Positions 31,535-46,689 of a DNA stretch of 64,000 bases are shown one piece after another. The notes under the pieces were generated by a model. The model was not told the origin of the DNA, searched no databases, and saw nothing but the letters and a program-made list of their open reading frames with translations. Source of the stretch: an uncultured Actinomycetes bacterium. GTDB taxonomy: Bacteria > Actinomycetota > Thermoleophilia > UBA2241. How positions within the stretch are numbered: position 1 is the stretch's first letter; every line of letters begins with the position of its first letter. A program made the position numbers and the translations under genes. Location of the stretch: assembly GCA_963755025.1 (NCBI GenBank), contig CAVWIH010000014.1, positions 352,001 through 416,000 of the forward strand. The letters are read 5' to 3'.

Positions 31535-33001
31535 ATGAAGCGCAATCTGCAGGCGGGGGCGCGACGCAGCGCCTTGCGCCTTGAGGTCTTCACCGAAGCG
31601 GACCTCGACGACATCCACCGCGGGACACTCGAGATCCTCGAGCGCACCGGCGTGTTCGTCGAAAGCGACGAGGCCCTCGACGTGATGGCCGACGGCGGCT
31701 GCCGGGTCGATCGCGAGACCAAGATCGTCAAGATCCCGCCGTACATCGTCGAAGACGCCATCCGCTGGTCGCCGAGCACGGTGACGCTCTGCGGGCGCGT
31801 GCCCGAGAACGACGTGGTGCTCGAAGGCGGCCGCGTCGGCTTCACCAACTTCAGCGCCGGCATCATGGTCATCGACCCGCGCACCGACGAGTACCGCAAG
31901 TCGACCACGCAAGACGTCGCCGACCTCGCGCTCATCACCGACTACCTGAGCGAGATCGACACCTACGAGCACTCCGTCGAGGGCCGCGACGCGCCCGAAG
32001 AGACGCTGGCCGTGCGCGACACGGCGCTCGCCTTGAAGAACACGACCAAGTGCGTCGGCACCGGCGCGCTCTCCACCTACGACGTCGACGCCATCGTGGC
32101 CATGGGCGCCGCGGTGGCCGGCGGCGAAGACAAGCTGCGCGAACGGCCGCTCGTCTACTTCTGCGAGTGCCCGGTCAGCCCGCTCAAGATCACCCGCGAC
32201 GCCGCCGAGGTCATCATGGGCGCCGCCCGCCACGGCTTGCCCAACAACGTGATCTCCATGGCCATGGCCGGCGCGTCGTCGCCGGTCACCCTGGCCGGCA
32301 CGCTGGTCACCCACAACTGCGAGGTGCTCGCCAGCCTCACGCTGGCGCAGCTCACCGAGCGCGGCGCGCCGACCATCTACGGCTCGTCGACCACCGCCAT
32401 CGACCTGCGGCTCGCCGCGGCGTCGGTCGGCTCTCCCGAGCTCGGCCTGCTCAGCGCCAGCGTGGCGCAGCTCGCGCAACGTTACATGCTGCCCAGCTTC
32501 GTAGCCGGGTTATAGGCAGACTCCAAGCTCAGTGACATCCAGGCCGGTCACGAGAAGACCCTGACCGCCCTCATGGCAGCGTTGGCAGGCGCCAACCTGA
32601 TCTACGGGGCGGGGATGACCGAGTCGGGTGTCACCTTCGATTACGCGCAGTACGTGCTCGACAACGACATGGCGAGAATGATCAAGAAGACGGTGGCGGG
32701 CATCTCCGTCACCGACGAGAACCTCGACCTTGCCGACATCCACGCCGTGGGCTCGTTCGGCGACTACCTGTCGCTCGACTCCACGCTCAAGCACATGCGC
32801 GAGCTCAGTCAGCCGCGGTTCATGGACCGTCGCGTCCGCGAGGACTGGCAGGCCATGGGCGCCAAGGACGCCTACTCCGCCGCCAAGGAGGCGGCGAAGC
32901 AGATCCTTGACGAGCACAAGCCGCTGGCCCTGCCGGGCGAGGTGGCCGACAAGCTCGACGCCATCCTGCACGACGCCGAAGTCCACGGCGGGGTGGTCTG
33001 A
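31535..33001 (+). CDS. mttB: Trimethylamine:corrinoid methyltransferase, pyrrolysine-containing (mttB1; 488 aa, Pyl327)
   Basis: ORFs 31535-32515 and 32573-33001 are in the same frame, joined across TAG 32513-32515: [45 protein letters not shown], the canonical MttB Pyl context. Confidence 0.92.
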
Positions 33002-37906: not shown

Positions 37907-39499
37907 TCAGGCCTCCTCGAGCACCGACGGCGCGGCCACGGCCGCCGGCAGCGCTGCCTCTGTCGCTCCCGAGGTCTCGCCGTCGAGCGCCAGCAGATCG
38001 CTGTCGCTCACGGCGCCGCTCGCGAGGTTGCGCCTGCCGATCAGCCAGAACACCGCGCCGGTGACGAAGAAGAAGCCGAGCGTGCCCAGCGTGACGGTCT
38101 CGAAGAAGACGCGAGAGACTCCCCAACTGGTCTCGATGTCGTAGCTCATCCCCAGCGCGCGATCGAGCAGCCCGGGCCAGAGCAGCGTGATCGCCGTGAG
38201 CACGATGATCGCCTCGGAGAGGATCACGCAGACCCACAGGCCGACGGTGCCGCCCGGCACCCGGAACGGGCGGCGCCGGTCGGGATACTTGCGCCGCAGC
38301 GGGATCACCGAGGGGAGCATGAAGAAGTACATGAGCGCCGTCAGCGAGATGACGAGCGTGACCATGACCGTGAAGAAGCTCTGCAGGCTGCCGCTCGTGA
38401 GCAAGAAGACCAGGGCGACGAAGATCGAGCCGATGACCGCCGAGACCACGTTCATCACGACCGGCGTGCCGGTGCGCCTGGAGAACGTGCCGAGCCACAG
38501 CGGCCCGGCGCCGTCGAGGCCGGCCACCGCCTGCACGCGCACGGCGCCCTGCAGCCAGACGCCGCCGGCGCTGATCACGGTGAGCACGACGAGCGCGCCG
38601 ATGAGGTAGTTGAGCCCCGTGTGCAGGCCACCGTGCAGCACGCCGGCGACCGCGAAGTAGGTGTCGGCGAAGCCGGTCGCGTTCGTGAGCTTACTGGCGG
38701 GGATGACGAGCAGCACACCCAGGATCAGCGAGCCCGTGACGAAGCAGGCCACCAGGCCGGAGCGCAGGATCATGACCGGCACGTCGCGCTGGGCGTTCTT
38801 CATCTCTTCGGCGGCGCCGTTGGAGAGCTCGAACCCTACGAAGAGGAACTGCAGCAGCCCGATCACCGCCAGAAAGCCGGTGACGCTGGGCTTGACCGAC
38901 GACAGGGTCACGGTGCCGGCCGGTTTGCCGTGGCTGATGAGGAAGGCGACGACGAGCACCAGGAAGATGGCCAGCATGAGCAGGCGCACGATCGTGCCGA
39001 GGATGCCGGTCCACTTGCCCCACTTGAGCTCGACGAGCGAGAGGCCCACGATCGCCCACACCACGGCGATGCCCACGACGATCGAAGGCAGCGTGCCCAT
39101 CGGGTTCTTCAGATAGAAGGTGTTGATCGCGGCGACGACCGCCGCCGCCAGCGTGCCGCCCATCCACACCGGGTTGCTCATCCAGTAGAAGACCGAGGTG
39201 AGCGCGCCCGGCAGGCGGCCAAAGGCCATGCGCGGCCACACGTAAGGCCCTCCCTCCACGGGGAAGGTCGAGCCCAGCTCCGCGACGATCATGCCGTAGG
39301 GCACGAGCCACACGAGGAGAATGACGATCAGCCAGAAGAAGGTCTGCCCGAGGCCGTAGGCCGCGGTCACCGCGATCGTGTCGAGGCTGATGAAGGCGGC
39401 GATGGTGAAGAAGACGATGTCGAAGCGCGTCAGGACCTTGCGCATCTTGGCGCGCTCCTGGCCCATCGCACCGGCCGTGGGGTCAGGCAGGGCGCTCAT
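37907..39499 (-). CDS. APC-family permease (candidate methylamine permease)
   Basis: AELGSTFPVEGGPYVW, GFELSNGAAEEMKN, RPFRVPGG; ATGA overlap with the corrinoid gene. Confidence 0.88.
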   Translation of the reverse strand: MSALPDPTAGAMGQERAKMRKVLTRFDIVFFTIAAFISLDTIAVTAAYGLGQTFFWLIVILLVWLVPYGMIVAELGSTFPVEGGPYVWPRMAFGRLPGALTSVFYWMSNPVWMGGTLAAAVVAAINTFYLKNPMGTLPSIVVGIAVVWAIVGLSLVELKWGKWTGILGTIVRLLMLAIFLVLVVAFLISHGKPAGTVTLSSVKPSVTGFLAVIGLLQFLFVGFELSNGAAEEMKNAQRDVPVMILRSGLVACFVTGSLILGVLLVIPASKLTNATGFADTYFAVAGVLHGGLHTGLNYLIGALVVLTVISAGGVWLQGAVRVQAVAGLDGAGPLWLGTFSRRTGTPVVMNVVSAVIGSIFVALVFLLTSGSLQSFFTVMVTLVISLTALMYFFMLPSVIPLRRKYPDRRRPFRVPGGTVGLWVCVILSEAIIVLTAITLLWPGLLDRALGMSYDIETSWGVSRVFFETVTLGTLGFFFVTGAVFWLIGRRNLASGAVSDSDLLALDGETSGATEAALPAAVAAPSVLEEA

Positions 39500-40137
39500 G
39501 TCGTCGACGCAGCAGCGACCAGGGCCTTGGCGCGGTCGACCGCCATGCCGGCGTTGGCGCCGTAGCCGTCGGCGCCCAGCGACTCGGCGAAGGCCTTTGT
39601 GACCGGCGCGCCGCCGACCAGCACCTTGACCTGCTCGCGCAGGCCGGCGTCCTGCAGCGCGGCGATCGTCTCGGCCATGCGCGGCAAGGTGGTGGTGAGC
39701 AGCGCGCTCATGCCGAGGATGGTCGCGTCGTGCTCCTTGACGGCCGCCACGAACTGCTGCGAGGTGACGCCGGTGCCCAGGTTGACGACCGTGAAGCCGG
39801 CGCCCTGCAGCAGCATGCCGACCAGGTTCTTGCCGATGTCGTGCAGGTCGCCTTCGACCGTGCCGATCACCACGGTGCCCAGGCCCCCGCTATCGCCGGC
39901 CCCGAGGTGCGGCTTCAAGATGTCGAGCGCGCCCTGCATGGTGCGCGCGCTGAGCAGCACTTCGGGAATGAAGCAGTCGCCCGAGCGCATGCGCTCGCCG
40001 ACCACGTCCATGCCGGGCAGCAGCGCGTCGTCCAGGATCTCGCGAGCCGGGGCGCCGCTCGCCAGCAGCGCCTGGGTGAGGGCGTTGACCGTGTCGGCGT
40101 TGCCGGCGATCAGCGCCTGCGTGAGTTGCTCTTTCAT
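39496..40137 (-). CDS. Methyltransferase cognate corrinoid protein (MttC/MtbC family)
   Basis: Cap domain FIPEVLLSARTM; B12-binding GDLHDIGKNLV...SALLTTT...VGGAP. Confidence 0.92.
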   Translation of the reverse strand: MKEQLTQALIAGNADTVNALTQALLASGAPAREILDDALLPGMDVVGERMRSGDCFIPEVLLSARTMQGALDILKPHLGAGDSGGLGTVVIGTVEGDLHDIGKNLVGMLLQGAGFTVVNLGTGVTSQQFVAAVKEHDATILGMSALLTTTLPRMAETIAALQDAGLREQVKVLVGGAPVTKAFAESLGADGYGANAGMAVDRAKALVAAASTT

Positions 40138-40209: not shown

Positions 40210-41683
40210 TCAGGCGACGCCGACCAGCCGGTCCGTCTGCTCGACGATGGCGTGCATGCGCGCGGCGATGTCGTCGGGGATGGGCTCGGGCCGATACTCG
40301 CGCACGACGTCGCGCGCCTTTTCGAGGCAGCGTGGTGTAGAGCTCCTTGGAGCCGCGCGCGTCCCACTCCTCGCGCACGCGGCGATCGAGGAACTGCGGC
40401 TGGCTGAGCTCGCGCATGTGGAGCAGCGTGGCGTCGAGCGAAAGGAAGTCCCCGAACGGACCGACCTGCACGATGTCCTCCACCGCCAGCGTCTCGTCGT
40501 TGACCCGCACTCCACCGACCACGCGCTTGATCATGCGCGCGAACTCGTTGTCCATGACGAACTGTCCGCAATCGAAGGTGACTCCCGACTCGATCATCCC
40601 CGCACCGTAGATCAGGTTGGCCCCTGCCAACGCTGCCATGATTCCGGTGAGGGTCTTCTCGTGCCCGACCTGGGCGTCACCGAGCTTGGCATCCGTCTAT
40701 AACCCGGCGACGAAGCTCGGCAGCAGGTAGCGCCGCGCCATCTGGGTCACCGCCGCGCTGATCATGGCGAGCTCGGGCGAGCCCACGCAGGCAGCCGCGA
40801 GCTTCAGGTCCATGGCCGTCGTGGACGACCCGTACATCACCGGGCAGCCACGCTCGGTGAGCTGCGCCAGCGTGATGCCCGAGAGCACCTCGGCGTTGTG
40901 GGTGACCAGGGTGCCGGCCAGGGTGACCGGCGAGGAGCCGCCCGCCATGGCCATGCTCAGGATGTTGTTGGGGATCCACCAGCGCGACGTCTCGATGATC
41001 ACCTGGGTGGCGTCGCGCGGCAGCTTGAGGGGGCTCACCGGGCAGACGCCGCCGTAGAGGATGGGGCGGCGGCGCAGCTCGTCGGCGCCGCCGACGACCT
41101 CGGCCGCCATCTCGAAGATCGCCCTCGCCTCGATCCGCGACAGCGGTCCTATGCCGATCGGCTTGGTCGTGTTCAGGAGCTGCGCCTCGGTGTGGTGGAC
41201 GGCGGCGGTCTCGGGCGGCACGTCGCTCGCTCCCACGGCGGTCTCGTGGGTGTCGATCTCGCTCAAGTAGTCGTTGAGACGGGCGATGTCGGCGATGTCC
41301 TTCTTGGTCGAGTTACGATACTCGCCGGTCTCGACGTCGATGACCCTGATGCCTTCGCTGAAGTTGGTGAAGGCCACGCGACCCGGCTCCATGACGAAGT
41401 CGTTCTTGGGGTTGTTGCGGCCGTACAGCACGTACCGGCTGGGCGCGGAGCGGATGGCGTCGTCGACCACATGCGGCGGAAAGCGCACGATATGCGTGTC
41501 GCGGTCGACCATGCAGCCGCCGTCGGAGTAGATGTCGAGCGCCTCGTCGTCTTCGACGAAGACACCGGCACGCTCGAGGACTTCGAGACTGGCGAAGTGG
41601 ATCTCCTCGAGCTCGGATTCGGTGAACACGTTGACGCTGAGGCCGCCGCTGCGCGGCCGGCCGGCGAAGAGGTTGCGTTTCAC
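40210..41683 (-). CDS. mttB: Trimethylamine:corrinoid methyltransferase, pyrrolysine-containing (mttB2; about 490 aa, Pyl329); apparent 1-nt frameshift near 40330
   Basis: LPSFVAGL-TAG(40699-40697)-TDAKLGDAQVGHEKTLTGIMAALAGANLIYGAGM in frame. The terminal segment CLEKARDVVREYRPEPIPDD...* (40210) is in a shifted frame and aligns with the mttB1 C-terminus. Confidence 0.88.
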
Positions 41684-41720
41684 ACTGCACCACCCCCTGG
41701 AACACGTCGTAGGGATTTAC

Positions 41721-41768
41721 TTAGTTACATAACTAACGGTACAGTATCAGATGGTCGAAGGCTGTCAA
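41721..41768 (-). promoter_or_regulatory. mttB2 promoter with palindromic operator
   Basis: TTGACA (41768-41763), 16 nt, TACTGT (41746-41741) with TGn extension; TTAGTTA-CA-TAACTAA at 41721-41736. Confidence 0.75.
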
Positions 41769-41871
41769 GACCTCACGGTCACGCCGCGAGTGGCGCGCCC
41801 GGAGGCCGATGGATATCCTCTGGGTAGTCACCGTACGGGGCTCCTCGGGGGCCGACGAAGGGAAGCCGAGC

Positions 41872-42507
41872 TTGACGAGGTACGAGATACCGATCGAGGA
41901 CCCGGCGCCGCATCTGGCGCCGACCGCGGCGCGCATCCTCGACGCCGCCAAACGCGTGCTGGCCCGCGACGGTTTTCGCGCGCTCACCTTCGTCAACATC
42001 GCCGACGAGGCCGCCGAGAACCCGGCCCTCATCCGTTATCACTTCGGCAACAAGGCCGGCCTCATCGCGACGCTCGTCGACTCGGTCCTCTACCTCGAGA
42101 GCCTCGACTTGATCGAGAAGCTCACCAGCGTGCCGCCCGGCGACGAGCGCCGCCGCGCCCTGTTCGCGCTCCACCAGACCTACACCAAAGACCTCGAGGG
42201 CTACCAGCTGTTCTACGAGCTCGTGCCGCACATCTTGCGCGACCCCGAGCTACGGCCACACCTGAGCGCCCTGTTCGACTGGTATCGCAAGCTCGACGCC
42301 TGGGCCCTGGGCGCGCAGCCCGGCACCGAGCACCCGGCGCAGCTCGAACCGCTGGCACTGCTCAGCGTCGCGCTCGCCGACGGCGTCGCTCTGCAGGTCC
42401 AGGTCGACCCCGACCTCGACGTCGGCCCCGCCTTCGAGATCTGGCGCGGGCTGATCCTGAGCTATCTCGACGGCGCCGCCGGCGGCGGCGCACCGCCGCA
42501 ACCCTAA
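41872..42507 (+). CDS. TetR/AcrR family regulator, divergent from mttB2 (start uncertain, 41809 or 41872)
   Basis: RILDAAKRVLARDGFRALTFVNIADEAAENPALIRYHFGNKAGL HTH. Confidence 0.88.
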   Translation: MTRYEIPIEDPAPHLAPTAARILDAAKRVLARDGFRALTFVNIADEAAENPALIRYHFGNKAGLIATLVDSVLYLESLDLIEKLTSVPPGDERRRALFALHQTYTKDLEGYQLFYELVPHILRDPELRPHLSALFDWYRKLDAWALGAQPGTEHPAQLEPLALLSVALADGVALQVQVDPDLDVGPAFEIWRGLILSYLDGAAGGGAPPQP

Positions 42508-43991
42508 CGCAGCTCCTGGTCGGCGGCGGCGACGATGCGCCGCAGCTCCCGTACCTTGTCGTCGGCAAGCGGCGTGGGCACGTAGTGCTCGAGAATATCG
42601 AGCCCGCGCTCGCGAGCGACCTCGACGGGGTTGCGGTAGTGGACGCCGTCGGGGCCGATCTCCTGTCCGATCGAGCGCTCGACGGTCTCTTTCATGTGCC
42701 GCCGGGTATGCGGCTGACCCAAAAAGTGCCCGCCCGGCCCCACCGCGTCGATCACGTCGAGGGCCAGCGTCTCCTCGTCTAACTCGACGTCCTTGAAGGC
42801 GTTGGCGGCGCGGTGGTAGAGGTCGTCGTCGAGCATCATGTGCTCGGGGGTGAACAGCTGATAGCGATTGGTGAGGCCGATCGTGGTCATGAGCTCCGAG
42901 CCGACGAGGCTCGCCACCATCAGCGTGTGCGCCGTCTCGGCGGCGGCCAGCCAGGTGCCCGGCAGGTCGTCGTCTGTGCCAGCGTACCCGCTCATCGCCG
43001 GCAGGCCGAAGTGGTGCACCAGCTCGGTCGGCAGGAAGAGGCCGCGATGGTTGAGCGGCGCCGTCGTCAGCGCGGCCGTGCGCGGATCGGCGTGCACCGG
43101 CAACGGAAAGAGGATCACCGGCGCGCCCGGGTGGGCGAGCTGGATGAGCACGGTGGCGCTGATGAGCTCGGCGAAGCCCATGACGTAGGCGCCGGCCTTG
43201 GTCGCCGGCGCCGTGGTGCCGAAGGTCGGCATGGTCACGAAGCACACCGGAATGCCGGCCTCGGCAAAGACGAGGGCCGCTTCGATCCCGTCCTTGTCGT
43301 TGACCAGCGGCTGCACGGTGCCGATCAGGTCGCTCATCGGCGGCCGGCGCCGCAGCTCCTGCGGGCCGCCGGCGACGACCGTCGCCATCTCCACGGCGTA
43401 GCGCGCCTCGCGCTCGCCCTGGACCATACCCTGGAGGTGCTTGCCGGTGTTGTTCCAGGCCGCCTCCAGCTCGTGCAGCGTGTGCGTGTCGCCGCAGTCG
43501 GCGGCGGCCACGTTCGGCCACCAGAACTGCAGCGAACCGAGGTAGTCGATCATGCGGGTGATGGCTTCGAGGTCTGTCTTGGTCGGCTGGCGGCGCACGC
43601 CGTCGTGCCAGTCGATGACCTCGGTGCCGCAGCCGTTGGTGGTGTTGAAGGTGTCGCCGCCGGCGAGGTCGAGGTCGCGCTCGCCGTCGCGCGAGCCCAG
43701 CCAGAAGTCGCGCGGCGCGCTCGCCAGGGCGCGCGTCACCAGGTCGGGCGAGAGGCGCGCGATCCCCGTGGCGCGGTCGACGCGCGCGCCGTGCTCCTCG
43801 AGGATGGCGAGCGTCTTGGGCGAGGCGAAGCGCACGCCGGTGCGCTCCAGCACCTGCAGCACCGCGTCTTTGTAGCGGTCGAGTCGCGCGCGGTCGTAAA
43901 AGGTCGCCTTGAAGTCGGAGCGCAGCGGCAGGAGTGGTTGCGGCCGGCTGAGGTCGAGGTGGGAACGGCCGAGGTCGAGTTGGCTAGTCAT
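42504..43991 (-). CDS. Non-pyrrolysine MttB-superfamily methyltransferase (mttB3, 495 aa)
   Basis: VLERTGVRF, TTAPATKAG, GLPAMSGYAGTD (no amber at the Pyl-equivalent site), VGPGGHFLGQPHTRRH; ATGA overlap with the mtbB stop. Confidence 0.85.
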   Translation of the reverse strand: MTSQLDLGRSHLDLSRPQPLLPLRSDFKATFYDRARLDRYKDAVLQVLERTGVRFASPKTLAILEEHGARVDRATGIARLSPDLVTRALASAPRDFWLGSRDGERDLDLAGGDTFNTTNGCGTEVIDWHDGVRRQPTKTDLEAITRMIDYLGSLQFWWPNVAAADCGDTHTLHELEAAWNNTGKHLQGMVQGEREARYAVEMATVVAGGPQELRRRPPMSDLIGTVQPLVNDKDGIEAALVFAEAGIPVCFVTMPTFGTTAPATKAGAYVMGFAELISATVLIQLAHPGAPVILFPLPVHADPRTAALTTAPLNHRGLFLPTELVHHFGLPAMSGYAGTDDDLPGTWLAAAETAHTLMVASLVGSELMTTIGLTNRYQLFTPEHMMLDDDLYHRAANAFKDVELDEETLALDVIDAVGPGGHFLGQPHTRRHMKETVERSIGQEIGPDGVHYRNPVEVARERGLDILEHYVPTPLADDKVRELRRIVAAADQELR

Positions 43992-45388
43992 GACGTCACT
44001 CCCGTCAGGGTCGTGTGGCGCTTGAAACACTCCACCGAGTTCACCGGCACGTCGAGCGTCTCTGCGATATGGAACTTGGCCGCGATGGCGCCGGGCTGGT
44101 CGGGGTAGGTCAGGTCCTGCACCGGGATGCGGCCAAGTCCGAAGTCGCGGCGCAGGTCGTGCATGGCGATCGTGTCGCTCAAGTCGAGCACCGAGCAGCC
44201 GAGCTTCTCGGCGACGTAGCGCTTGGCCTGCGGGAGACGCATGCCTCGGGTGATCTGCATGCGGGCTACCAGGTCTCCGGCGGTCCGCATTCCGCCCATA
44301 CCCGAGGCGAGCGCGTGAGTGGAGGCTATCCCCAAAGGATCCCCCACGCCTACCTACAAGCCGTCGAGCTTGAGGATGTCGACCAGCGCGCGTGAGGCGC
44401 GCGACGTGGCGTCGACCGGAGGGTAGGGGCTCATCGGCACGCCGCCCACACCCATGCCGGCGTTCATGTGGACGGGGATGGTCGCCTCGGCGGTCACCGG
44501 CTTCACGAGCGCGCAAGCGCGCGCCGTGTTCCAGGCCAGCGACTTGGTGGTGTTCACGTTGACCGCCGGACCGAAGATCGTGGCGCCGGCCGCCGTGACG
44601 GCGCGCAGCTGGTCGAGCGGCCACATGCCGGCGAGGCGGCGGCCCTCGTACTCGAGCTCGCCGTGCATGCCGAGCACGAGCTCGCCGGCCTGGCCGACCT
44701 CGACCCCGATGTCGGGCCAGCGATCGCGGACCTGCCTGACGACCCGCAGCGTAGCCAGCAGGTCGGCGTCGCCGGCCGCGCCGGCCGTGTCGAAATCGAG
44801 GCCGTCGGCGCCGGCCGCGATCATGGTCTCGGCGACGATCAGCATGTCGTGCTCAAGGAGGCCGACGGCCTCTTCCTGGGCGCGGCGCGCTTCTTCGATC
44901 TTGCCCAGGGGCAGCAGCTGCGACCAGTTGTCGGCGGGGCCGTCGGGCTTCGAATAGCGGCCGAGGTCGGGCATGGCGCCGTAGTTCAGAGGGACCACCG
45001 TCTGCAGTTGGGCGTCCTTCATCATCTGCGCCTGAAACGAGAGCACGGTGCGCACGGCCTTGTAGGAGTAGTCGAGGTGCCAGAGCTCGAGCGAGTCGGC
45101 GCCGTGGTGGTTCTGGTAGACGAGCTGCTCGGTGACCGGATGCCCCAGGTCGCCGTTGCCGGCACCGTCGAAGCTGAGCACGACCTCGTCGCCGTAGTCG
45201 ACCGCGGTGAACTTCGATGGCGAGGTGAAGATGTCCAACAGGTGCGCGAGCTCGTCGGCGGCGAGCGGCTCCACCTTGGCGCGCCGCACCGCGGCCGCGA
45301 CTCCGGCCTCGAGGTCGGCCTCGATCTCGGCCGGCGTCATCTCGGCAAGGGAGCCGTCTCCGAGGCGTGTGGGTATGCGATGCGCCAT
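43988..45388 (-). CDS. mtbB: Dimethylamine:corrinoid methyltransferase, pyrrolysine-containing (466 aa, Pyl345)
   Basis: TRLGDGS, DYSYKAV, YGAMPDLG, DFDTAGAAGDAD; then LKLDGL-TAG(44356-44354)-VGVGDPLG...SGMGGMRTAGDLVARMQ...AKRYVAEKLG, the canonical MtbB Pyl context. Confidence 0.92.
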
Positions 45389-45418
45389 CGTCCCCCAGTT
45401 TCGTTCGCGGATTCTTAC

Positions 45419-45476
45419 TTAGTTACCTAACTAACTCCTGGCGCGCACGATACCGGGGACCCGGCGGGCGTGTCAA
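45419..45476 (-). promoter_or_regulatory. mtbB promoter with the same palindromic operator
   Basis: TTGACA (45476-45471), 18 nt, TATCGT (45452-45447); TTAGTTA-CC-TAACTAA at 45419-45434. Confidence 0.75.
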
Positions 45477-45564
45477 GGCTGCGGCGAGCGGGGCGGCGGG
45501 CGGGGGTCGGCGACACGTGCGCCGACGCTCGGATCGATCGGAGCGCGAGCCTGCGCGGGCGCCT

Positions 45565-46689
45565 CTACACGCGCGCCAGGCCGGCTCCCTCGACGAGGGA
45601 GCGCAGCTTGGCCCACGCCACGGTCGGGGTGACCTGAGGCCGGCCGACGAACGTACCGAAACCGCAGTCCGTACCCGCCACCACGCGCTCCGCCCCGACC
45701 ACCGAGGCGAACCGCTCGAGGCGCTGGGCGACCAGTTCGGGGTGCTCGACGAAGTTCGAAGTCGAGTCGATCACGCCGGGTATCAGGTACTTGCCCTCGG
45801 GCAGCGGCCGCCCGGCGAACACGGTCCACTCGTGACCGTGACGAGGGTTGCTGGCCTCGATCGACAGGCCGAGCGGCGTTGCGTCGAGCACGACGTCGAT
45901 GATGTCGGCCAGGGGGACGTCGTGCGTGTGGGGGCCTTCGTAGTTGCCCCAGCACAGATGCAGGCGCATGCGTTCGGGGGAGATGCCGCGCGTCGCGTGG
46001 TTGAGCGCCTCGACGTTGAGCGCGATGTCGCGGCGGAACTCCTCGAGACTGAGGCCGGCGAAGACCGTGTGTCTGCCGGCCGCCAGGTCGGGACAATCGA
46101 GCTGCAGCGTCACGCCGGCATCGACGATCGCTTCGTACTCCGGCCTCATCGCCTCGGCGAGCGCGCCGAGGTACTGCTCGCGATCGCCGTAAAAGCGGTC
46201 CTCGAAGAAGAGCGCGATCACGCCGGGCGAGGCGGCCGTCATGAACAGCTGGCCCATGTCTGCGCCGGCCGCGCTCGCCGCGGCGCGCAGGTTCTCGAGG
46301 TCGCGCCCCACGGCCTCGTCGTCGCGCCGCCGCACCGGCCCAGTGCAGGCCGGCGTGCGCACCTGCAACCCGCTCAAGACGAGGCCCATGCGCTCGGCGT
46401 CGTCGGGAAAGTCGGCAAGCTCGGCCAACGGCGAGAGGCCGCCGGGCTCTCCTGCGAAGCCGGTCAGGCGGTCCTTGATGTACGTCGAGTAGCCGACCTT
46501 GCTCTGTTCGCCGTCGTTTACGATGTCGAGCCCGATCTCGGCCTGAAGGCGCACGGCCTCGGCGACCGCGGCCGTCACTCGCTGCTCGAGTCCGGCGGGC
46601 GTCCCACCTTCGTCGCGCTCGACGACCATCGCCGCGAGGTCGGCCGGCCGGGGCAGGCTGCCGGTATGTGTCGTGAGAATGCTTGCCAC
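45565..46689 (-). CDS. Cobalamin-independent methionine synthase II-like protein (MetE catalytic-domain / epoxyalkane:CoM transferase family)
   Basis: TTHTGSLPRP, VNDGEQSK, HLCWGNYEGPH, SIEASNPRH, GTDCGFGT (Zn ligands). Confidence 0.88.
   Translation of the reverse strand: MASILTTHTGSLPRPADLAAMVVERDEGGTPAGLEQRVTAAVAEAVRLQAEIGLDIVNDGEQSKVGYSTYIKDRLTGFAGEPGGLSPLAELADFPDDAERMGLVLSGLQVRTPACTGPVRRRDDEAVGRDLENLRAAASAAGADMGQLFMTAASPGVIALFFEDRFYGDREQYLGALAEAMRPEYEAIVDAGVTLQLDCPDLAAGRHTVFAGLSLEEFRRDIALNVEALNHATRGISPERMRLHLCWGNYEGPHTHDVPLADIIDVVLDATPLGLSIEASNPRHGHEWTVFAGRPLPEGKYLIPGVIDSTSNFVEHPELVAQRLERFASVVGAERVVAGTDCGFGTFVGRPQVTPTVAWAKLRSLVEGAGLARV

What the first reader, a model, noticed from the sequence alone, without database searches (positions are those of the whole stretch)
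43988..45388. Bacterial Pyl-containing dimethylamine methyltransferase (MtbB)
Seen: LKLDGL-TAG-VGVGDPLG...RTAGDLVARMQ gives 466 aa on read-through. This matches the archaeal MtbB pattern DG[IV]-O-IGVGDP as I recall it. To my knowledge MtbB is much less common in bacteria than MttB. Because MtbB and MttB are not close homologs, an amber at the correct site in both families is independent support for Pyl.
Basis: partly seen in the sequence, partly recalled or inferred. Interest (0 to 1): 0.85.

Follow-up and report, generated by a model that had tools for sequence, protein, structure and literature searches.

The report
Pyrrolysine-type dimethylamine methyltransferase gene, Thermoleophilia
This is an intact gene for a dimethylamine-type methyltransferase whose internal TAG "stop" sits where methanogens insert the rare amino acid pyrrolysine, in an uncultured peat or soil actinobacterium; it is a correct catch of something already reported for this lineage.

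Summary
On the minus strand, ATG 45388 to TGA 43988 gives 466 aa if the single TAG (44354-44356) is read through.

- **Family:** the joined protein matches Dimeth_Pyl end to end (527.6 bits) and passes the MtbB equivalog cut-off (422.3 vs 369.1).
- **Amber position:** the TAG aligns with positions 1-3 (UAG) of Rfam's mtbB PYLIS_2 model. It also aligns with the column where archaeal Methanomethylophilaceae MtbB fragments end.
- **Conservation:** all 126 homologous sites in related loci carry TAG.
- **Machinery:** the same genome holds pylB, pylC, pylD, tRNA-Pyl(CUA), pylSn and pylSc. It also holds five more full-length TAG-bearing mtbB copies and five TAG-bearing mttB genes.
- **Lineage:** related contigs are labelled Thermoleophilia. 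MtbB and PylS co-occur in two families of the class.

Translation of the TAG as pyrrolysine and dimethylamine as substrate are inferred, not shown.

Extras seen here:
- a conserved promoter and palindromic operator shared with the neighbouring mttB operon;
- a conserved pairing with a non-Pyl MttB-family gene;
- a 7-bp hairpin 74-91 nt after the UAG, kept by paired synonymous changes.

Ellenbogen et al. 2023 already reported expressed Pyl-encoding mtbB in Actinobacteriota (genus Bog-752). This scan noted the same thing in at least 25 other genomes. Verdict: real, well supported, modest novelty.

The parts
43988..45388 (-). mtbB coding sequence, 466 codons plus TGA, with one in-frame TAG
   Evidence: PF09505 527.6 bits over profile 4-462/463. 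TIGR02368 422.3 bits, cut-off 369.1.
44354..44356 (-). TAG codon 345, the presumed pyrrolysine codon
   Evidence: Same column in all 6 full-length paralogues of the genome. 126 of 126 homologous sites are TAG. Aligned to UAG of Rfam PYLIS_2 and to the end of archaeal MtbB fragments.
44257..44356 (-). Match to Rfam RF02509 PYLIS_2 (pyrrolysine insertion sequence of mtbB)
   Evidence: 73.7 bits, gathering 36, E 2.8e-17, model 1-100/100. Helix 1 is only 57% paired across 114 sequences.
44266..44283 (-). 7-bp hairpin with a 4-nt loop, nt 74-91 counted from the U of UAG, inside the codons for A-A-G-D-L-V-A
   Evidence: 98.7% of cells paired in 114 sequences. Two pairs of third-codon sites covary. 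0 of 500 shuffles reach the observed score. Tree-aware contrasts all go the compensating way but are too few.
45447..45476 (-). Sigma-70-like promoter, TTGACA-18 nt-TATCGT
   Evidence: 10 of 12 matches; 1 site found against 0.1 expected in shuffles. TTGACA is present upstream in 10 of 10 orthologous loci printed.
45419..45434 (.). Palindromic operator-like site TTAGTTA-NN-TAACTAA between promoter and start codon
   Evidence: Only two sites in the 3.37 Mb genome at up to 3 mismatches. Both half-sites are recognisable in 9 of 10 orthologous upstream regions, one of them (L026) with one mismatch in the first half.
42504..43991 (-). MttB-superfamily gene without an internal stop (495 aa); its ATG overlaps the mtbB stop (ATGA)
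   Evidence: PF06253 196 bits; TIGR02369 271.9 bits, below the 525 cut-off. It follows the mtbB orthologue in 13 of 15 loci; the other 2 loci end at mtbB.
41809..42507 (+). TetR-family regulator, the candidate repressor of both operons
   Evidence: PF00440 39.4 bits. Conserved next to the gene pair in related loci.
41721..41736 (.). Second copy of the operator-like palindrome, upstream of the mttB-corrinoid-permease operon
40210..41716 (-). mttB copy 2 with in-frame TAG at 40697-40699; reading frame shifts about 45 codons before its end
39496..40137 (-). Corrinoid (B12-binding) protein gene
   Evidence: PF02310 90.3 bits and PF02607 78.5 bits
37907..39450 (-). APC-type permease gene (approximate start)
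   Evidence: PF13520 133.8 bits
31535..33001 (+). mttB copy 1 with in-frame TAG at 32513-32515
   Evidence: PF06253 317.6 bits on read-through; 1 TAG

Best explanation
The gene encodes a pyrrolysine-dependent methylamine:corrinoid methyltransferase of the MtbB family in an uncultured Thermoleophilia-type actinobacterium. During translation, tRNA-Pyl(CUA) reads the UAG at codon 345 as pyrrolysine. The tRNA is charged by a split PylSn/PylSc synthetase with pyrrolysine made by PylB, PylC and PylD. Pyrrolysine then lies on a beta-strand of a TIM barrel. By analogy with the archaeal enzymes, it binds and activates dimethylamine so that one methyl group passes to the Co(I) of a small corrinoid protein, leaving monomethylamine. 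The gene forms a two-gene operon with a non-Pyl MttB-family methyltransferase. A conserved promoter drives the operon, and a palindromic operator follows the promoter. The operator recurs once more in the genome, in front of the neighbouring mttB(Pyl)-corrinoid-permease operon, so the TetR gene between the two operons probably switches both. Shown here: family membership, position and conservation of the TAG, presence of the Pyl machinery, synteny and the sequence signals. Inferred: actual Pyl insertion, dimethylamine as the substrate, the corrinoid partner, and the TetR control.
For: Family and amber position:
- PF09505 matches end to end across the TAG, and TIGR02368 scores above its equivalog cut-off.
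- The TAG is in the same column in all 6 full-length paralogues of the genome, and in 126 of 126 sites in related loci.
- It aligns to the UAG of Rfam PYLIS_2 at 73.7 bits.
- Archaeal Methanomethylophilaceae MtbB fragments of 354 aa end at that column.
- 97 of the 120 listed database homologues are exactly 344 aa, and none covers more than 74% of the query. Gene callers therefore stop at the same TAG.

Pyl machinery in the same genome:
- PylSc 277.8 bits; tRNA-Pyl with anticodon CUA.
- PylB 421.7, PylD 173 and PylSn 125.8 bits, all above cut-off; PylC 244.3 against 248.3, from an N-terminally short query.

Distribution in 301 genomes of the class:
- MtbB is in 63 and PylS in 61.
- Every PylS genome is an MtbB genome, and both are confined to families f1 and f4.

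Structure and partners:
- The AlphaFold model has pLDDT 90 and pTM 0.91, residue 345 lies in strand 343-347, and the matches are TIM barrels.
- The genome holds about 10 small corrinoid proteins and 2 RamA-like activases.

Operon and signals:
- Synteny with the non-Pyl MttB gene and TetR.
- Promoter and operator.

Literature:
- Passages of Ellenbogen et al. 2023 (PMC10805028) report Actinobacteriota MAGs expressing Pyl-encoding mttB and mtbB.
Against: - No protein-level evidence exists that the UAG is read as pyrrolysine.
- TAG is not rare in this genome: about a third of long coding-like ORFs end in TAG (447 of 1332, crude count).
- In two mtbB paralogues the first stop after the family domain is itself TAG. 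Decoding must therefore be partial, context-dependent or regulated.
- No corrinoid gene lies inside this operon; the nearest is 4 kb away in the next one.
- The protein is only 41% identical to the named archaeal MtbB fragments.
- It lies in a Thermoleophilia-only clade on a long stem (0.65) that lacks an 11-residue segment, so substrate identity with the Methanosarcina enzyme is not assured.
- No MtmB was found (the genome is 84% complete), so the fate of monomethylamine is open.
Confidence: 0.9

Rival explanations
1. The enzyme is a genuine pyrrolysine enzyme, but dimethylamine is not its substrate. The Thermoleophilia clade has radiated into paralogue lines that demethylate other secondary or tertiary amines. 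This copy works in sequence with its non-Pyl MttB-family partner on a quaternary amine and its products.
For: - The genome has six full-length paralogues only 47-60% identical to each other.
- Each own paralogue sits in a separate subclade that has orthologues in other MAGs.
- The clade sits on a long stem and lacks an 11-residue segment.
- The conserved coupling is to a non-Pyl MttB-family gene, not to mttB(Pyl) as in the C16 and C34 loci.
- Non-Pyl MttB relatives are described as specific for quaternary amines (passage in PMC10805028).
Against: - The protein scores above the equivalog cut-off of the dimethylamine model.
- The residues around Pyl (DGL-O-VGxGDP, AGDLVARM) are conserved with the archaeal type.
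- No assay or ligand evidence exists for any other substrate.
Confidence: 0.3
2. The TAG is a true stop, and the locus is a split or decaying gene that yields a 344-residue fragment.
For: Gene callers annotate it this way (97 of 120 listed homologues are 344 aa). TAG is a common stop codon in this genome.
Against: - The 121 codons after the TAG keep the frame, high GC3 (0.85) and family-level conservation.
- TAG, never another stop codon and never a sense codon, is kept at 126 of 126 sites across sequences as little as about 50% identical.
- The gene co-occurs with PylS.
Confidence: 0.02
3. The gene is archaeal contamination of the bin, or a very recent transfer from a methanogen.
For: The family was first known from methanogens. 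The bin has 5% estimated contamination.
Against: - The gene lies on a 442.7 kb contig of a genome with 70.7% G+C overall, and its own codons carry the same high GC3.
- The 80 best genome loci are all labelled Thermoleophilia, Actinomycetota or Actinomycetes.
- It sits in a starred clade of 44 rows, all from this genome or from contigs carrying those labels, with the archaeal rows outside.
- 53 of 55 sampled genomes of its family carry the gene.
Confidence: 0.01

Closest known systems
MtbB1-3 of Methanosarcina barkeri, the characterised dimethylamine:corrinoid methyltransferases with UAG-encoded pyrrolysine (models TIGR02368 and PF09505; role described in PMC9842639, passages read)
   Same: Same family above the curated cut-offs. 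Amber at the family's column. Same flanking motifs (DG-x-O-x-G-x-GDP and AGDLVARM). Same Rfam PYLIS_2 match. Expected to hand a methyl group to a small corrinoid protein.
   Different: Bacterial host with a split PylSn/PylSc. Only 41% identical to the named archaeal (Methanomethylophilaceae) fragments. Lacks an 11-residue segment. No coenzyme M pathway is expected, so the downstream methyl acceptor must differ. The Methanosarcina sequence itself could not be fetched here.
Pyl-encoding mtbB and mttB of Actinobacteriota MAGs (genus Bog-752) from Stordalen Mire, Ellenbogen et al. 2023, mSystems (PMC10805028; passages read)
   Same: The best genome hit, at 93% identity with the same gene order, is a MAG labelled bog_752. 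The paper states that such MAGs express Pyl-encoding mttB and mtbB.
   Different: Nothing in kind. The passages read give no analysis of the Pyl cassette, paralogue radiation, operator or hairpin. The paper's supplements could not be opened and may list these genes.
Pyl-decoding Firmicutes and Deltaproteobacteria such as Acetohalobium arabaticum and Desulfitobacterium hafniense (table in PMC3639795)
   Same: Bacteria with tRNA-Pyl, pylS and pylBCD, and amber-containing methylamine methyltransferase genes.
   Different: Different phylum, with a G+C-rich genome in which TAG ends about a third of genes. There are many more mtbB copies per genome here (6 full-length).
Non-Pyl MtbB homologue P0128 (463 aa, metagenomic, unnamed)
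   Same: Full-length relative, 35% identical, aligned over the whole protein.
   Different: No stop codon; it has Trp at the pyrrolysine column. Its function is unknown.

Membership tests
MtbB, [dimethylamine--corrinoid protein] Co-methyltransferase (TIGR02368 / PF09505) | Full-length match above the curated cut-offs | tested here: met
   PF09505 527.6 bits (cut-off 25), profile 4-462/463. TIGR02368 422.3 bits (cut-off 369.1), profile 1-465/466.
MtbB, [dimethylamine--corrinoid protein] Co-methyltransferase (TIGR02368 / PF09505) | Single in-frame UAG at the family's pyrrolysine column | tested here: met
   Aligned to UAG at positions 1-3 of Rfam PYLIS_2. Aligned to the end of archaeal 354-aa fragments and of 353-356-aa homologues. 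126 of 126 related sites are TAG. The number 356 itself was not checked against M. barkeri.
MtbB, [dimethylamine--corrinoid protein] Co-methyltransferase (TIGR02368 / PF09505) | Pyrrolysine synthesis and decoding genes in the same genome | tested here: met
   pylB, pylD, pylSn and pylSc above cut-off; pylC 4 bits below, from a short query; tRNA-Pyl with anticodon CUA.
MtbB, [dimethylamine--corrinoid protein] Co-methyltransferase (TIGR02368 / PF09505) | Cognate corrinoid protein (MtbC type) and reductive activase | tested here: inconclusive
   About 10 small corrinoid proteins and 2 RamA-like genes are in the genome. None is in this operon; the nearest is at 39496-40137. Which one partners this enzyme is unknown.
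MtbB, [dimethylamine--corrinoid protein] Co-methyltransferase (TIGR02368 / PF09505) | Dimethylamine-dependent methylation of the corrinoid protein | not testable with these tools
   Needs an enzyme assay.
MtbB, [dimethylamine--corrinoid protein] Co-methyltransferase (TIGR02368 / PF09505) | UAG translated as pyrrolysine in the mature protein | not testable with these tools
   Needs mass spectrometry. No RNA run was listed either.
Rfam RF02509 PYLIS_2 (mtbB) | Covariance-model score above the gathering threshold, starting at the UAG | tested here: met
   73.7 bits against 36, model 1-100/100. Much of the score may come from conserved coding sequence.
Rfam RF02509 PYLIS_2 (mtbB) | Helix 1 (nt 7-38) forms | tested here: not met
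   57.3% of cells paired in 114 sequences; several non-standard pairs in the window's own copy.
Rfam RF02509 PYLIS_2 (mtbB) | Helix 2 (nt 74-91) forms and is maintained | tested here: met
   98.7% paired. Pair types CG 66, GC 17, UG 15, UA 6, AU 2, other 8; and CG 67, UG 25, GC 19, UA 1, other 2. 0 of 500 shuffles reach this. Independent contrasts: 3 of 3, and 3 of 4 with 1 unchanged; each p = 0.25.

The most novel reading that the evidence does not exclude
The Thermoleophilia-only MtbB clade may not be a set of redundant dimethylamine enzymes. It may be a radiation of pyrrolysine-dependent demethylases with different amine substrates. In that reading, this copy is always coupled to a non-Pyl MttB-family gene and shares a TetR operator with the mttB(Pyl)-corrinoid-permease operon. 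Together they would form a regulated cascade that strips methyl groups one after another from a quaternary amine, in a non-methanogenic peat actinobacterium. The hairpin 74-91 nt after the UAG is also part of Rfam's mtbB model, whose seed sequences were not examined here, and is kept by paired synonymous changes. It would be a functional translation signal and not a by-product of the peptide sequence.
Probability: 0.25. Interest if true: 0.65.

Novelty: new member of a known kind. Interest (0 to 1): 0.35.

Why it matters
Pyrrolysine use outside methanogens is still poorly charted. Here a whole family of soil and peat actinobacteria carries the Pyl cassette together with many mtbB and mttB copies: 53 of 55 sampled genomes of the family for MtbB and 51 of 55 for PylS.

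These bacteria probably compete with methylotrophic methanogens for methylamines, which bears on methane budgets of thawing peat.

Standard gene callers split every one of these genes, so their abundance is under-counted.

The genome ends about a third of its genes with TAG. That makes it a useful natural case for asking how a cell reads UAG both as stop and as an amino acid.

For this gene as such, the value is confirmatory.

Tried and rejected
- **Solved structures:** the PDB sequence search gave no hit. Foldseek gave only generic TIM barrels at TMq 0.31-0.37, so no specific structural relative could be named.
- **M. barkeri reference:** a named MtbB1 sequence could not be obtained. The single genome-contig scan returned only actinobacterial loci, and Paul et al. 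2000 is not held. The O356 numbering therefore rests on indirect alignment.
- **Direction of transfer:** the tree has only two named archaeal rows, four unnamed representatives, N-terminal columns only, a quick search and no root. It excludes a recent archaeal origin but cannot give the direction of any ancient transfer.
- **Local folding:** the 150 nt after the TAG fold no better than shuffles (z = -1.09), so a strong local structure is not indicated. Rfam helix 1 is rejected for this clade.
- **Hairpin statistics:** a tree-aware test of the covariation has too few independent contrasts to be significant.
- **RNA runs:** no RNA holder was listed for 42507-46689.
- **Upstream gene:** the MetE-like gene (45565-46689) was considered as an operon partner. 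It was rejected because a promoter and operator lie between it and mtbB, and it has no counterpart in the 40 related loci examined.
- **Earlier findings:** the look-up near this place returned nothing, and a word search for the hairpin returned nothing.
- **Literature:** searches for pyrrolysine with Thermoleophilia, Actinobacteria plus mtbB, Actinobacteriota, and for Bog-752 found only Ellenbogen et al. as relevant. PMC10654671 mentions pyrrolysine only in a reference.
Full report
**Observation.** The coordinates are right, but the gene lies on the minus strand. It runs from ATG 45388 to TGA 43988-43990. It contains one in-frame TAG at 44354-44356, which is codon 345. The third-codon G+C signature of this 70.7% G+C genome continues after the TAG: 0.92 before it and 0.85 after it.

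**What it is.** The joined protein matches Pfam Dimeth_Pyl over profile positions 4-462 of 463 at 527.6 bits. It matches the NCBIfam equivalog for [dimethylamine--corrinoid protein] Co-methyltransferase at 422.3 bits, against a cut-off of 369.1.
- No solved structure of the family exists. Passages of PMC9842639 say the MtbB structure was still being pursued.
- An AlphaFold model built on 47 sequences is confident (pLDDT 90, pTM 0.91). It puts residue 345 in a beta-strand (343-347).
- Foldseek matches for the model are TIM barrels only: HisA/HisF, betaine-homocysteine methyltransferase and the MetH homocysteine domain, at TMq 0.31-0.37.

**Does the amber sit at the pyrrolysine position?** Three lines say yes.
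- Rfam's PYLIS_2 model for mtbB matches 44356..44257 at 73.7 bits (gathering 36). The model's UAG at positions 1-3 falls on this TAG.
- In an exhaustive search of cluster representatives, homologues of 353-356 residues all end at query residue 344. One of these clusters is named as MtbB of Candidatus Methanomethylophilaceae archaeon, and its 354-aa members end ...IAKVDGV opposite ...ILKLDGL.
- The window's clade lacks an 11-residue segment that other paralogues and the archaeal fragments have, so 345 corresponds to about 356 in the longer forms.

The Methanosarcina barkeri sequence itself could not be fetched, and Paul et al. 2000 is not held. The number 356 is therefore not directly verified.

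**Conservation.**
- The genome holds six full-length mtbB copies and one broken copy. Each full-length copy has one TAG, all in the same column.
- In loci L004-L009 and L013-L090, 126 sites with the motif DGx-stop-xGxGD were found, and all 126 stops are TAG.
- Among the 120 best database homologues, 97 are exactly 344 aa and none covers more than 74% of the query. Gene callers therefore cut them at the same codon.

**Machinery.** On another contig (L012 = G000:C10:66000-82000) lie pylB (421.7 bits), pylC (244.3 against 248.3, from an N-terminally short query), pylD (173), tRNA-Pyl with anticodon CUA, and pylSn (125.8). A corrinoid protein gene and pylSc (277.6), the latter on the opposite strand, follow within about 5 kb. 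The split synthetase is the bacterial arrangement (three classes described in PMC11363022, passage read).

The genome also has:
- five mttB genes with one TAG each, two of them in the window;
- about seventeen MttB-family genes without a stop;
- no MtmB found, in a genome that is 84% complete;
- two RamA-like activases;
- about ten small corrinoid proteins.

**Lineage.**
- The 80 best loci in species-representative genomes are all MAGs labelled Thermoleophilia, Actinomycetota or Actinomycetes. The best hit is 93% identical and is labelled bog_752.
- In 301 genomes sampled from the class, MtbB is found in 63: 53 of 55 in the window's own family, 9 of 55 in a second family, none in the others, plus the window's own genome.
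- PylS is found in 61 of the same 301. All 61 are MtbB carriers. Two MtbB carriers (93% and 83% complete) showed no PylS.
- A quick maximum-likelihood tree was built on the 344 columns before the TAG, with 53 rows.
  - It puts the window's gene beside the bog_752 gene (98*).
  - Both lie inside a starred 44-row clade made only of this genome's copies and rows from those labelled MAGs, on a stem of 0.65.
  - The genome's other paralogues fall in different subclades, each with orthologues in other MAGs.
  - The two archaeal rows lie outside.
  - This argues against contamination or recent transfer. With so few named outgroup rows and no root, it says nothing about an ancient donor.

**Surroundings and control.**
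- The mtbB stop overlaps the start (ATGA) of a 495-aa MttB-family gene that has no internal stop and scores below the trimethylamine equivalog cut-off.
- This pair is conserved. In 13 of 15 loci whose mtbB is at least 74% identical, the same gene (80-92% identical) follows. The other two loci end at mtbB.
- A TetR gene on the other strand follows the pair. After it come mttB(Pyl), a corrinoid protein and a permease.
- Upstream of mtbB there is a sigma-70-like promoter (TTGACA-18-TATCGT). One such site was found, against 0.1 expected.
- Between the promoter and the start codon there is the palindrome TTAGTTA-NN-TAACTAA.
- This palindrome has only one other copy in the whole genome at up to 3 mismatches. 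That copy is at 41721-41736, in front of the mttB-corrinoid-permease operon and next to the TetR gene.
- The promoter hexamer is present in 10 of 10 orthologous upstream regions printed. Both half-sites are recognisable in 9 of 10, one of them (L026) with one mismatch in the first half.
- I infer that the TetR protein represses both operons. This is not tested.
- The MetE-like gene upstream is outside the operon and is not conserved there.

**RNA signal.**
- Across 114 distinct 100-nt segments after the UAG, Rfam's first helix is poorly supported (57% paired).
- The whole 150 nt fold no better than shuffles (z = -1.09).
- A 7-bp stem at nt 74-80 and 85-91 (window 44266-44283) is paired in 98.7% of cells.
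- Five of its pairs are fixed by the codons of A-A-G-D-L-V-A.
- The other two pairs join third-codon sites and covary: CG 66, GC 17, UG 15, UA 6, AU 2, other 8; and CG 67, UG 25, GC 19, UA 1, other 2. None of 500 shuffles reaches this.
- On a tree of 109 of these 114 genes (five with too short an upstream frame were dropped), the independent contrasts go the compensating way in 3 of 3, and in 3 of 4 with one unchanged. None goes the other way. This is too few for significance (p = 0.25 each).
- The Gly codon in the loop is GGA in all 114 sequences, although third positions here are over 90% G or C.
- The hairpin is already part of Rfam's model, so it is not new. Its function is unknown, and it lies too far from the UAG to touch a ribosome paused there.

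**How UAG is handled.**
- In a crude count of 1332 long coding-like ORFs, 447 end in TAG, 762 in TGA and 123 in TAA.
- In two mtbB paralogues, the first stop after the family domain is itself TAG.
- The cell must therefore read UAG both ways: by competition, by context, or by switching the Pyl genes on only when needed. None of this is resolved here.
- TAG-ended ORFs are followed by at least 80 further coding-like in-frame codons more often than TGA-ended ones: 74 of 447 against 71 of 762. This fits a set of Pyl genes but was not dissected.

**Known or new.** Passages of Ellenbogen et al. [quoted passage not shown] They name genus Bog-752 among the most active methylotrophic bacteria.
- Four literature searches found no other relevant paper.
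- The paper's supplements could not be opened.
- This scan has noted the same kind of gene 33 times, in at least 25 other genomes, with the same verdict.

The finding is therefore a sound new member of a known kind. What is added here is the family-wide co-occurrence figures, the conserved promoter-operator pair, the coupling to a non-Pyl MttB gene, and the test of the two Rfam helices.

**Verdict.** Real gene, real recoding site. Confidence is 0.9 that it is a pyrrolysine-type MtbB-family enzyme, and about 0.6 that dimethylamine is its substrate. Interest is 0.35.

Noticed in passing
window 40210-41716 (-): The second mttB(Pyl) copy changes reading frame about 45 codons before its end. The expected C-terminus (...CLEKARDVVREY...LVGVA-stop) is in the next frame. 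This is either an assembly error or a real frameshift.
   Followed up: partly
G000:C24:57108-58541 (-), outside the window: An MttB-family gene with one in-frame TGA, in a genome that also has a tRNA-Sec at C24:14507-14604. Possible selenocysteine, or a broken gene.
   Followed up: no
G000:C11:13507-16429 (L006, L008): In two mtbB paralogues the first stop after the family domain is TAG, although each also has the internal Pyl TAG. Reading that TAG through would add 33-50 residues.
   Followed up: partly
G000:C11:17943-19303: A seventh mtbB copy is broken into three frames, with an extra TGA. It is a pseudogene or a poorly assembled stretch.
   Followed up: no
window 44276-44278 (-), nt 79-81 after the UAG: The Gly codon of the AGDLVARM motif is GGA in all 114 sequences aligned, in genomes where third positions are over 90% G or C. 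It lies at the stem-loop junction of the conserved hairpin.
   Followed up: partly
protein P0128 (metagenomic, 463 aa): A full-length MtbB homologue without any stop, with Trp at the pyrrolysine column. It may be a non-Pyl branch of the family, analogous to non-Pyl MttB.
   Followed up: no
window 45565-46689 (-): A 374-aa protein with a weak match to the catalytic domain of cobalamin-independent methionine synthase (47.7 bits) lies just upstream of the mtbB promoter. It is not conserved at this place in relatives.
   Followed up: partly
L012 (G000:C10:66000-82000): The gene order pylB-pylC-pylD-tRNA(Pyl)-pylSn is followed by a radical-SAM gene, a corrinoid protein and then pylSc on the opposite strand. 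From memory, this differs from the usual bacterial order pylT-pylSc-pylBCD-pylSn.
   Followed up: no
L087:5922-6021: One mtbB copy in a related MAG has a one-base insertion 65 nt after its TAG, so it is frameshifted or mis-assembled.
   Followed up: no
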